Virus record (IMG/VR): IMGVR_UViG_3300017942_000001
DNA: 64,000 nucleotides
Source of the DNA: a virus
Strand: one strand, 5' to 3'
Shown: piece by piece, positions 12,920-13,591 of the stretch
Layout: every line of letters starts with the position of its first letter
Position numbering within the stretch: position 1 is the stretch's first letter
Made by a program: the position numbers and the translations under genes
The notes under the pieces: generated by a model
What the model was told of the DNA's origin: nothing
The model's input: the letters and a program-made list of their open reading frames with translations, nothing else
The model's database searches: none

Positions 12920-13591
12920 TCACGTGGCTCCTGGCATCTGTAGCGCGACCAGGCGATCCAGGCCGATCGCCACCTCGAACACCATCCCGCCGGGCCAGTC
13001 GGTTCGCACCGAGCATCCGGCGACTTCCAACTCGCCGATGTGCCAGTCTAGCGTCTTCTCGCTGTAGTGGGGGAGCGATCCGTCCGGCGCGCGGTACGTC
13101 CCGCCGTACAGTGCGACGAGCCGGTCGAGCGCGCACTCCAGGTACGGCGCCTTTGACCCGATGCTCGCGAACAGCTGGAACTCCATCTGGTAGAACTGCA
13201 CGAGGCGCAGCTTGCTCGCGCGCATCGTCTCCGACTTCGCCTCGTCGCGGAACGAGCAGCCGACCTGCCACATGCAGTAGGGCAGGCGCTTCTTGCGCAC
13301 GGCCTCGTCGGGGAAGCGCTGCGCGAAGGCCTCGTACGTGCCGACGGTCGTCTCGGGGCGGAGGTAGCCGCGTGCTCCACACGCGATGAGGTCGAAGCCC
13401 GTCTCGATGTGTCCGGCGAGACGGTCGGCTGGCGTGAGGATGGGCGTCTCGCAACGCTCCATCTGCACGGCGGGGTTGAGATCTCGCCACGCCGCGAGCA
13501 GCTGCCCGGGGATCTCGCGGACGAGGTTCTCCCTCCGCGTGATCTCGAGCTCGGACCACATCACCGTGGCATTGGAGAAGCAGTTCCTCAT
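12920..13591 (-). CDS. class II aminoacyl-tRNA synthetase catalytic core, GlyRS (alpha2)-like, no anticodon-binding domain
   Basis: ATG after GGAGG; ETPIL (motif 1), YLRPET, QVGCSFRDE and FYQMEFQLF (motif 2), PHYS, EVAIGLDRL (motif 3); 223 aa. Confidence 0.8.
   Translation of the reverse strand: MRNCFSNATVMWSELEITRRENLVREIPGQLLAAWRDLNPAVQMERCETPILTPADRLAGHIETGFDLIACGARGYLRPETTVGTYEAFAQRFPDEAVRKKRLPYCMWQVGCSFRDEAKSETMRASKLRLVQFYQMEFQLFASIGSKAPYLECALDRLVALYGGTYRAPDGSLPHYSEKTLDWHIGELEVAGCSVRTDWPGGMVFEVAIGLDRLVALQMPGAT

What the first reader, a model, noticed from the sequence alone, without database searches (positions are those of the whole stretch)
12920..13591. Minimal 223-aa GlyRS-like synthetase lacking the anticodon-binding domain
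Seen: class II motifs 1-3 and GlyRS-type YLRPET and PHYS in an ORF with a strong RBS that ends right after motif 3. Established: alpha2 GlyRS is about twice this size with a C-terminal anticodon-binding domain; truncated class II paralogs act as amino acid:carrier-protein ligases or protein aminoacylases (e.g. EpmA/GenX), and aaRSs can make Ap4A. Inference: an anticodon-blind enzyme that could charge the abnormal tRNA-like RNAs at 5.9-6.2 kb (one has a tRNA-Gly-like 5' half), modify a protein, or make a dinucleotide signal.
Basis: partly seen in the sequence, partly recalled or inferred. Interest (0 to 1): 0.65.

Follow-up and report, generated by a model that had tools for sequence, protein, structure and literature searches.

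The report
Phage mini glycyl-tRNA-synthetase-like enzyme
This large soil phage carries an intact 223-residue enzyme that is only the catalytic heart of a glycyl-tRNA synthetase; it belongs to a widespread, unstudied phage family found beside tRNA and tRNA-repair genes, and I found no tie to the odd tRNAs nearby.

Summary
Window 12920-13591 (minus strand) is a real 223-aa gene with a GGAGGA ribosome-binding site. It has class II motifs 1-3, YLRPET and PHYS, and ends 6 residues after motif 3.

It is the complete catalytic core of a dimeric (alpha2-type) GlyRS: Z 21.5, with 211 of 223 residues superposed on M. tuberculosis GlyRS. The big insertion, a ~20-aa hairpin and the anticodon-binding domain are missing. 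The ATP arginines and the three glutamates that align with the GlyRS glycine pocket are invariant in 75 relatives.

The family has about 146 clusters at 50% identity, nearly all 210-250 aa and almost all viral. This scan met it before in at least six other genomes. I found no paper on it.

- None of 43 related Pth2-like/odd-tRNA modules has the gene within the DNA held (up to 10 kb each side).
- Three near-complete ~60-kb phages with a 75%-identical copy have no tRNA gene and no Pth2.

Across the family the gene recurrently sits in tRNA arrays and near Pth2, RNA ligase and end-healing phosphoesterases.

Most likely it activates glycine and charges tRNA-Gly through the acceptor end alone, as part of a phage tRNA-maintenance kit. 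This is not shown.

The parts
12920..13591 (-). Mini GlyRS-like gene, 223 aa (P0001), stop codon included
   Evidence: AlphaFold2 model pLDDT 95.2, pTM 0.91
13597..13602 (-). Shine-Dalgarno GGAGGA, 5 nt before the ATG
   Evidence: read directly
13430..13552 (-). Motif 1 region: long helix 14-38, strand 43-46, conserved E48/P50 (residues 14-54)
13349..13366 (-). YLRPET (residues 76-81); E80 aligns with Glu188 of T. thermophilus GlyRS
13166..13279 (-). Motif 2 (residues 105-142): invariant R115, E117, F133, E137 (aligns with Glu239 of T. thermophilus GlyRS), plus an extended, conserved motif 2 loop
13061..13072 (-). PHYS (residues 174-177), aligned with the GlyRS AHYA block
12938..12985 (-). Motif 3 (residues 203-218): invariant E206, G210, R213
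12712..12918 (-). 68-aa ORF starting 1 nt after the stop codon (possibly translationally coupled); no family match and not conserved beside relatives
13608..14168 (-). Upstream 186-aa ORF of the same operon; no family match and not conserved beside relatives
17236..17964 (-). RNA ligase gene, same strand, 3.6 kb upstream (context)
   Evidence: phrog_14301 E 8e-55; weak Pfam RLIG1
5881..6720 (-). Pth2-like gene (6292-6720) and four abnormal tRNA genes (5881-6217), same strand, 6.2 kb downstream (context, not shown to be linked)
54386..56680 (+). RtcB RNA ligase with an intein (context: the phage's tRNA/RNA-repair toolkit)

Best explanation
The gene encodes a minimal, stand-alone, catalytically competent core of an alpha2-type glycyl-tRNA synthetase. 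It binds ATP and glycine and makes glycyl-adenylate. This step is inferred from an intact, invariant active site. It then most likely transfers glycine to the 3' end of tRNA-Gly, host or phage-encoded, recognising only the acceptor end because every anticodon-reading and insertion module is gone. This step is inferred from context only. It works as an accessory of the phage's tRNA-maintenance kit (tRNA arrays, Pth2, RNA ligases, end-healing phosphoesterases) and keeps Gly-tRNA available during infection. It is not a dedicated partner of this phage's abnormal tRNAs.
For: Fold and kinship:
- AlphaFold2 model pLDDT 95.2.
- Best structural matches are GlyRS from M. tuberculosis, Nanoarchaeum, T. 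thermophilus and human: Z 20.4-21.5, 210-211 of 223 residues, 22-25% identity. Other class IIa cores reach 12-18% identity.
- Profile against PDB: GlyRS E 2e-21; the next family (ProRS) 9e-7.

Active site:
- R115/E117 (motif 2) and G210/R213 (motif 3) are invariant in 75 members spanning 30-80% identity.
- So are the three acidic residues E80, E137 and E206. E80 and E137 align with Glu188 and Glu239 of T. thermophilus GlyRS; E206 aligns with the E of the GlyRS motif ETSVGLDR.
- Keeping the residues aligned with the glycine pocket argues against a purely ATP-condensing or purely regulatory role.

The protein is whole:
- About 146 clusters at 50% identity, nearly all 210-250 aa.
- No longer or fused forms found.

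tRNA context, over 58-59 dereplicated loci:
- A tRNA gene lies within 2 kb in 21 loci and within 500 nt in 13.
- In a complete 372-kb phage, 11 of the 13 tRNA matches lie in one 5.4-kb cluster, and the gene sits inside it.
- The commonest neighbour families are PTH2 (11 loci, in all three major clades of the tree), Metallophos phosphoesterase (8), T4-type RNA ligase (8), CysRS (6) and a kinase-phosphatase (5).
- The nearest relative found (81% identity, L082) lies between PTH2/tRNA-Asn and more tRNAs, in an array of 16 tRNAs.
- This window itself has an RNA ligase 3.6 kb upstream, Pth2-like plus tRNAs 6.2 kb downstream, and RtcB.

A universal partner:
- The tight clade (65-85% identity) spans phages of 26-69% GC that share no other gene with this window. 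That fits a substrate common to all bacteria, such as the tRNA-Gly acceptor end.
- All but three of the phage tRNA-Gly genes in these loci show GC(G/A/U)....(C/U/A)GC-U-CCA; the exceptions are one in L036 and two in L074.

Precedent: a CysRS that lacks its anticodon-binding domain charges a special tRNA (PMC9437257).
Against: - No biochemical data exist. Amino-acid activation and the acceptor are both inferred.
- tRNA-Gly genes are not specifically enriched next to the gene: 9 of 90 tRNAs within 2 kb against 16 of 125 farther away, Fisher p 0.67.
- In Caulobacter phage CcrBL9 the gene lies about 16 kb from the nearest tRNA.
- The missing insertion and anticodon-binding domains are, as I recall them, the parts that hold tRNA in full-length GlyRS, so efficient charging by the bare core is uncertain.
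- The protein is mildly acidic (pI 5.7).
- Gene neighbourhood in phages is weak evidence of function.
Confidence: 0.45

Rival explanations
1. It activates glycine but hands it to something other than tRNA: a carrier protein (like the SerRS-derived amino acid:carrier-protein ligases), a protein side chain (like EpmA on EF-P), or a nucleic-acid or small-molecule acceptor.
For: Several characterised class II cores that lack an anticodon domain (aa:CP ligases, EpmA, AsnA, HisZ) do not charge tRNA (established knowledge; PMC9437257). The Bradyrhizobium glycine:carrier-protein ligase is a close structural match (Z 19.5-19.7, 201 residues). One 357-kb relative has a gene with an rIIB and a PP-binding domain 2 kb upstream. 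Near-complete phages without any tRNA gene still keep the enzyme.
Against: No carrier protein, phosphopantetheinyl transferase or other candidate acceptor recurs among neighbours in 59 loci, whereas tRNA genes and tRNA-processing genes do. By sequence the family is nearest GlyRS (24-25% identity), not the SerRS-like ligases (17-18%). The tRNA-less phages can use host tRNA.
Confidence: 0.25
2. One reading: it is the dedicated, anticodon-blind charging enzyme for non-standard phage tRNAs. These would be the four-base-anticodon or abnormal tRNAs here, and amber-suppressor tRNAs elsewhere.
For: In this window the gene lies 6.2 kb from, and on the same strand as, the Pth2-like gene and four abnormal tRNAs. 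One of them is tRNA-Gly-like (GCAGGAA..., A73), and in relatives this type carries four-base anticodons. Two have the Gly/Cys-type discriminator U73. In two separate lineages (L033, and L066/L075/L077/L079) the gene lies within 1-2 kb of a tRNA-CUA and within 1-3 kb of a Pth2 gene. In the three loci I read through (L033, L066, L079) that Pth2 gene has an early in-frame stop, which I read as TAG in L033 and L066. Such tRNAs would escape anticodon-reading synthetases.
Against: None of 43 loci with the same Pth2-like/odd-tRNA module has the gene within the DNA held, up to 10 kb each side; 16 loci hold 12 kb or more. Three near-complete ~60-kb phages with a 75%-identical gene have no tRNA and no Pth2. 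Only 3 of 58 family loci hold an odd-anticodon tRNA. The three CUA tRNAs whose ends I could read (L033, L066, L079) have A73 or G73 rather than the bacterial tRNA-Gly U73, and none of the six has tRNA-Gly among its six nearest matches.
Confidence: 0.1
3. It is not a charging enzyme but a nucleotide-signal synthase (Ap4A or similar), or a regulator that binds tRNA or host GlyRS.
For: Human GlyRS has been crystallised with Ap4A (entry 2zt5, among the structural matches). HisZ shows that class II cores can become regulators (PMC9437257).
Against: All three aligned glycine-pocket glutamates are invariant, which Ap4A synthesis by direct ATP condensation, as I recall it for human GlyRS, would not require. 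A host of phages that carry the gene, Caulobacter vibrioides, has the unrelated alpha2beta2 GlyRS: glyQ rings over its cut-off there. So heterodimers with host GlyRS cannot be the general mechanism.
Confidence: 0.08

Closest known systems
Alpha2-type (dimeric, class IIa) glycyl-tRNA synthetase, e.g. M. tuberculosis 8u2p/8t5n, T. thermophilus 1ati/1b76, human 2zt5/5e6m
   Same: Same catalytic fold over the whole protein (Z 20.4-21.5, 210-211 of 223 residues). Motifs 1-3, YLRPET, the (A/P)HY(A/S) block, the motif 2 and 3 arginines and the three aligned glycine-pocket glutamates are all present.
   Different: Less than half the size. It has no C-terminal anticodon-binding domain. Where a Flavobacterium GlyRS has about 115 aa between motif 1 and YLRPET, this protein has about 20. 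It also lacks a ~20-aa hairpin before motif 3. It has Ala where the GlyRS motif has Ser, two residues after the third glutamate. Its motif 2 loop is 3 residues longer. It scores far below the GlyRS equivalog cut-offs (42 against 312 bits). It occurs in phages whose hosts use the other GlyRS type.
Pyrrolysyl-tRNA synthetases that lack the N-terminal domain, e.g. Methanomethylophilus alvus PylRS, about 275 aa
   Same: A small class II enzyme consisting essentially of the catalytic core (Foldseek E about 1e-11; VIA Z 19.2-19.3). From established knowledge, it charges its tRNA without reading the anticodon.
   Different: PylRS is 15-19% identical to this protein, has a different amino-acid pocket, keeps an extra tRNA-binding helical tail at its N-terminus, and is about 50 residues longer.
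Amino acid:carrier-protein ligases (Bradyrhizobium Bll0957, glycine:[carrier protein] ligase, 3mf2/4h2s)
   Same: A truncated class II core of about 300 aa that activates glycine without any anticodon domain; Z 19.5-19.7.
   Different: These are derived from SerRS (17-18% identity here), are encoded next to their carrier protein, and are bacterial. No carrier-protein gene recurs beside the phage family.
CysRS* of Desulfobacterales (PMC9437257)
   Same: A synthetase that lost its anticodon-binding domain and still charges a tRNA.
   Different: It is a class I enzyme, genetically coupled to its special tRNA (SelC*). No such coupling to one tRNA was found here.

Membership tests
Class II aminoacyl-tRNA synthetase catalytic-core superfamily | Antiparallel beta-sheet core with motifs 1, 2 and 3 | tested here: met
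   Model pLDDT 95.2. Z about 19-21.5 to many class IIa enzymes over the whole length. Motif residues P50, R115/E117 and G210/R213 are conserved. The Pfam PF00587 hit is just below its gathering score (27.2 against 29.3 bits).
Alpha2-type glycyl-tRNA synthetase (TIGR00389 / PRK04173) | GlyRS-specific active site: acidic glycine pocket (Glu188, Glu239, Glu359 in T. thermophilus numbering) plus the motif 2 and 3 arginines | tested here: met
   E80, E137, E206, R115 and R213 align to these positions and are invariant in 75 members. The roles of these residues in T. thermophilus GlyRS are recalled from the literature, not re-derived here.
Alpha2-type glycyl-tRNA synthetase (TIGR00389 / PRK04173) | C-terminal class IIa anticodon-binding domain | tested here: not met
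   The protein ends 6 residues after motif 3. There is no such domain in the downstream frames. No longer relatives were found.
Alpha2-type glycyl-tRNA synthetase (TIGR00389 / PRK04173) | Full-length match above the curated equivalog cut-off, including the GlyRS insertion domain | tested here: not met
   41.9 against 312 bits and 33.2 against 243.3 bits. The insertion and the pre-motif-3 hairpin are absent.
Alpha2-type glycyl-tRNA synthetase (TIGR00389 / PRK04173) | Glycylation of tRNA-Gly | not testable with these tools
   Needs ATP-PPi exchange and aminoacylation assays.
Class II synthetases in general | Homodimer through motif 1 | not tested
Amino acid:carrier-protein ligase | Adjacent carrier-protein gene and SerRS-type ancestry | tested here: not met
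   No PP-binding gene among the 10 nearest window ORFs, and none among the ten commonest neighbour families that I annotated. By sequence the family is nearest GlyRS, not SerRS.
Uncharacterised phage mini-GlyRS family (about 146 clusters at 50% identity) | 210-250 aa, GlyRS-like core only, conserved NGL..W.E.EI..RE / LRPETT / SFR.E / EFYQLEFQ / LP.YS..T.D / E.AIGLDR blocks | tested here: met
   P0001 is 65-85% identical to more than 120 clusters and sits inside the tight clade, sister to L082 (support 98).

The most novel reading that the evidence does not exclude
The enzyme is an anticodon-blind glycylating enzyme that phages use to charge tRNAs whose anticodons have been rewritten: four-base decoders here, amber suppressors in other lineages. 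Together with those tRNAs it would form a natural orthogonal pair that switches on recoded Pth2 genes. A related reading is that, with Pth2, it restores the Gly-tRNA pool after host toxins that act on tRNA-Gly (TacT-type acetyltransferases, FaRel2-type toxSAS; PMC9241777, PMC11245113).
Probability: 0.1. Interest if true: 0.85.

Novelty: new variant of a known kind. Interest (0 to 1): 0.55.

Why it matters
If this 223-residue protein charges tRNA, it would be, as far as I know, the smallest natural aminoacyl-tRNA synthetase. It would then be a living counterpart of the minimal catalytic cores proposed for early synthetase evolution. It would also be a ready-made anticodon-independent glycylating enzyme for genetic-code engineering.

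For phage biology it would add a charging step to the known phage tRNA toolkit of tRNA genes, Pth2, RNA ligases and end-healing enzymes.

Why glycine is an open question. Host toxins that block translation repeatedly pick tRNA-Gly (PMC9241777, PMC11245113), which suggests a counter-defence role. That idea is untested.

The family is abundant: about 146 clusters at 50% identity, hundreds of clusters at 90%, in cultured Caulobacter, Brevundimonas, Xanthomonas and Sinorhizobium jumbo phages. I found no study of it.

Tried and rejected
- Frameshifted or split anticodon domain downstream: rejected. There are no such hits in the three downstream frames, and the family has a uniform length.
- Fused or longer forms: none found. 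This is weak evidence. The few relatives of 306-352 aa have an N-terminal extension with no Pfam domain.
- PHROGs: no family for this protein.
- Synteny: apart from the gene itself, the held flanks of 81 homologue loci (up to 10 kb each side) share almost nothing with the window. The only other real hits are a 113-aa ORF at 26.4 kb (3 loci), one ORF at 37.5 kb (1 locus) and RtcB (1 locus). The apparent hit of ORF 13386-14369 is an antisense artefact.
- Finding relatives of the window's Pth2-like gene in the viral collection failed three times. The metagenome scan gave 40 loci.
- Whole-contig search of those metagenome contigs for the mini-GlyRS was not possible because the records are not held. 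Genome-level co-occurrence is therefore untested.
- tRNA-Gly-specific adjacency: not significant.
- Are the suppressor tRNAs beside family members tRNA-Gly-like? No.
- Heterodimer with host GlyRS as a general mechanism: rejected, because Caulobacter has the alpha2beta2 type.
- Cellular genomes: the tight clade was found in only 2 MAG contigs among 185,579 species genomes. The protein atlas lists one 249-aa cluster that is mainly from Pseudomonadota; I did not follow it up.
- Literature searches for a description of the family found nothing.

Full report
**1. The observation**

GGAGGA lies 5 nt before the ATG, and the preceding gene stops 17 nt upstream. Codon-position GC (0.63/0.47/0.90) is that of a genuine gene in this 69% GC sequence. 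YLRPET (residues 76-81), PHYS (174-177), the motif 2 arginine (R115) and motif 3 (GLDRLVAL, 210-217) are all present. The protein ends six residues after motif 3.

Pfam sees the class II G/H/P/S/T core just under threshold. The best NCBIfam hits are the three GlyRS equivalogs, far below their cut-offs. The best PDB sequence hits are GlyRS.

**2. What the protein is**

An alignment of 75 relatives (A1) gave an AlphaFold2 model with pLDDT 95.2 and pTM 0.91. The structural matches are:
- Best: M. tuberculosis GlyRS, Z 21.5, rmsd 2.7 A, 211 of 223 residues, 24% identity. It spans residues 18-339 of that chain.
- Nanoarchaeum, T. thermophilus and human GlyRS follow, at Z 20.4-21.1.
- ThrRS, ProRS, HisRS, PylRS and the Bradyrhizobium glycine:carrier-protein ligase score Z 19-20, at only 12-19% identity.

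By sequence profile, GlyRS stands alone: E 2e-21, against 9e-7 for the next family.

A profile comparison with a 513-aa Flavobacterium GlyRS fetched here (P0348) aligns residues 74-217 with 212-383 at 98.8% probability. Together with the pairwise alignment, it shows what is missing:
- most of the ~115 aa that lie between motif 1 and YLRPET in that GlyRS;
- a hairpin of about 20 residues before motif 3;
- the whole C-terminal anticodon-binding domain.

The active site is kept. Seventeen residues are invariant across members that are only 30-40% identical to each other. They include:
- R115/E117 (motif 2) and G210/R213 (motif 3);
- E80, E137 and E206. In the printed alignment to 1ati, E80 and E137 fall on Glu188 and Glu239. 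In the GlyRS profile alignment, E206 falls on the glutamate of ETSVGLDR.

These are the positions I recall as the acidic glycine pocket of T. thermophilus GlyRS. That attribution is from memory, not tested here. An enzyme that keeps both the ATP site and the glycine site under such strong selection most probably still makes glycyl-adenylate.

**3. The family**

An exhaustive search of 1.84 billion representatives found 146 clusters at 50% identity, almost all 210-250 aa. The word-index search found 275 clusters at 90% identity. The best 120 are 64-85% identical to this protein and about 220 aa long.

Same-length homologues occur in cultured jumbo phages of Caulobacter, Brevundimonas, Xanthomonas and Sinorhizobium, and in published megaphage contigs. 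There they are annotated as hypothetical protein, aminoacyl-tRNA synthetase or 'serine-tRNA synthetase'.

No fused or longer forms appeared. The tight clade is practically absent from 185,579 species genomes: two MAG contigs only. Atlas clusters are 83-92% viral, apart from one 249-aa cluster from Pseudomonadota.

This scan has noted the same family on at least six other genomes. I found no paper that describes it.

**4. A striking conservation pattern**

On a tree of 59 dereplicated family members, the window's protein sits in a short-branched clade. Its sister is a copy from a 48% GC contig (L082, 81% identity, support 98). That clade spans phages from 26% to 69% GC.

Even the 75%-identical copies share no other gene with this window in the up to 10 kb held on each side. 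The gene is therefore either very mobile or far more constrained than anything around it. Both possibilities point to a partner that is the same in very different hosts.

**5.

The window does carry a Pth2-like gene followed by four abnormal tRNA genes 6.2 kb downstream, on the same strand. In relatives this tRNA type reads GCGGGAA...UUCCCGC-A and carries four-base anticodons.

The co-occurrence test fails, however:
- I collected 43 loci (415 kb; 16 of them 12 kb or longer) around homologues of this Pth2-like gene. Most have the same odd tRNAs. None contains a family member.
- Three near-complete phage genomes of 58-64 kb with a 75%-identical copy have no tRNA gene and no PTH2.
- Only 3 of 58 family loci hold an odd-anticodon tRNA.

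Whole-genome co-occurrence in the large contigs could not be checked. The link is therefore unsupported rather than excluded.

**6. What the neighbourhoods do say**

Across 58 dereplicated loci, a tRNA gene lies within 2 kb in 21 and within 500 nt in 13.

In a complete 372-kb phage, 11 of the 13 tRNA matches lie in one 5.4-kb cluster, and the gene sits inside it. In three other large phage records it sits inside one of several tRNA clusters.

The commonest neighbour families are:
- PTH2: 11 of 59 loci, in all three major clades of the tree;
- calcineurin-like phosphoesterase: 8;
- T4-type RNA ligase: 8;
- CysRS: 6;
- a kinase-phosphatase: 5.

L082, the closest relative with DNA in hand, has PTH2, then tRNA-Asn, then the gene, inside an array of 16 tRNAs. 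The window fits the same picture: RNA ligase at 17236-17964 (phrog_14301, E 8e-55), Pth2-like plus tRNAs at 5.9-6.7 kb, and an intein-bearing RtcB.

tRNA-Gly is not specifically enriched next to the gene (Fisher p 0.67). The context therefore says 'tRNA metabolism', not 'tRNA-Gly'.

**7. Mechanism**

Shown:
- the gene is real;
- the fold is a GlyRS-type core;
- the ATP and glycine sites are conserved;
- all tRNA-body and anticodon-binding modules are absent;
- the gene is associated with tRNA and tRNA-repair genes.

Inferred:
- The enzyme makes Gly-AMP and transfers glycine to the CCA end of tRNA-Gly, recognising only the acceptor end.
- That end is close to invariant in bacteria. All but three of the phage tRNA-Gly genes in these loci read GC(G/A/U)....(C/U/A)GC-U-CCA. 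This would explain the conservation across hosts.
- The motif 2 loop, which I recall as the element that touches the acceptor end in class IIa enzymes, is three residues longer than in GlyRS and almost invariant in the tight clade (M123, R124, A125, L128-L130).

Caulobacter vibrioides, a host of phages carrying the gene, has the unrelated alpha2beta2 GlyRS. The phage enzyme therefore cannot work generally by pairing with host GlyRS subunits. In such hosts it is a second, structurally different glycine enzyme.

Why glycine is open. TacT toxins acetylate Gly-tRNA, and Pth reverses this (PMC9241777). [quoted passage not shown] A Pth2 plus GlyRS pair as a counter-measure is therefore a coherent idea, but it is untested.

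**8. Rivals**

A non-tRNA acceptor (carrier protein, protein side chain or other) is the main rival, because several known truncated class II cores work that way. No candidate acceptor gene recurs beside the family.

The dedicated-odd-tRNA idea keeps some life. In two lineages the gene lies between a tRNA-CUA and a Pth2 gene. The three of these Pth2 genes that I read through (L033, L066, L079) have an early in-frame stop, and I read it as TAG in L033 and L066. Those tRNAs do not look like tRNA-Gly, though.

Ap4A synthesis or a regulatory role fits poorly with an invariant glycine pocket.

**9. Verdict**

This is a new member of an uncharacterised phage family that is a stripped-down variant of alpha2 GlyRS. 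It is interesting as a candidate smallest natural synthetase. The scan has seen the family before, and in this window there is no specific evidence tying it to the abnormal tRNAs.

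Noticed in passing
L033:11732-12478; L066:9005-12600 (also L075, L077, L079): In two separate lineages a tRNA-CUA, the mini-GlyRS and a Pth2 gene lie within about 3.5 kb. The Pth2 gene has an early in-frame stop in the three loci I read through. I read the bases in two: ATG ACG TAG in L033, and TAG at codon 8 in L066. This parallels the four-base-codon-gated Pth2-like gene of this window.
   Followed up: partly
window 6066-6143 (-); L083:10550-10624, L087:1663-1738, L101:4300-4375, L102:1969-2044: The second tRNA of the Pth2-like module is tRNA-Gly-like in its acceptor stem and body (GC(A/G)GGAA..., A73). 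In relatives it carries four-base anticodons (taac, ccta). In this window its anticodon arm is expanded instead. Which enzyme charges it is unknown.
   Followed up: partly
L002-L030, L082 versus the window: The tight clade of the family keeps about 60-81% protein identity to the window's copy across phages from 26% to 69% GC. These phages share no other gene with the window in the up to 10 kb held on each side. That is unusually strong conservation, or single-gene mobility, for a phage accessory gene.
   Followed up: partly
L001:6569-7915: In a 357-kb phage contig, a 448-aa gene 2 kb upstream of the mini-GlyRS carries both a T4 rIIB-like domain and a PP-binding (carrier-protein) domain, according to precomputed Pfam hits.
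   Followed up: no
contig carrying P0039 (no DNA held): About 7-8 kb upstream of that mini-GlyRS lie a 264-aa protein with only the AlaRS catalytic-core domain (PF01411) and a split release-factor gene (PCRF/RF-1). This is another truncated synthetase in the same neighbourhood.
   Followed up: no
L082:1-15619: A 16-tRNA array is interleaved with PTH2, the mini-GlyRS, a cytidylyltransferase-like gene, adenylosuccinate synthase, a dual-specificity phosphatase and a GatB/YqeY-domain gene.
   Followed up: no
window 17236-17964 (-): An RNA ligase gene (phrog_14301, E 8e-55) lies 3.6 kb upstream of the mini-GlyRS on the same strand. Together with the intein-bearing RtcB at 54386-56680, this gives the phage two RNA ligases.
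   Followed up: partly
L084:2450-2872 and L085:8258-8680: Relatives of the window's Pth2-like module carry a 140-aa RF-1-domain protein (possibly ArfB-like) a few kb away, and tRNA-Met genes on the opposite strand.
   Followed up: no
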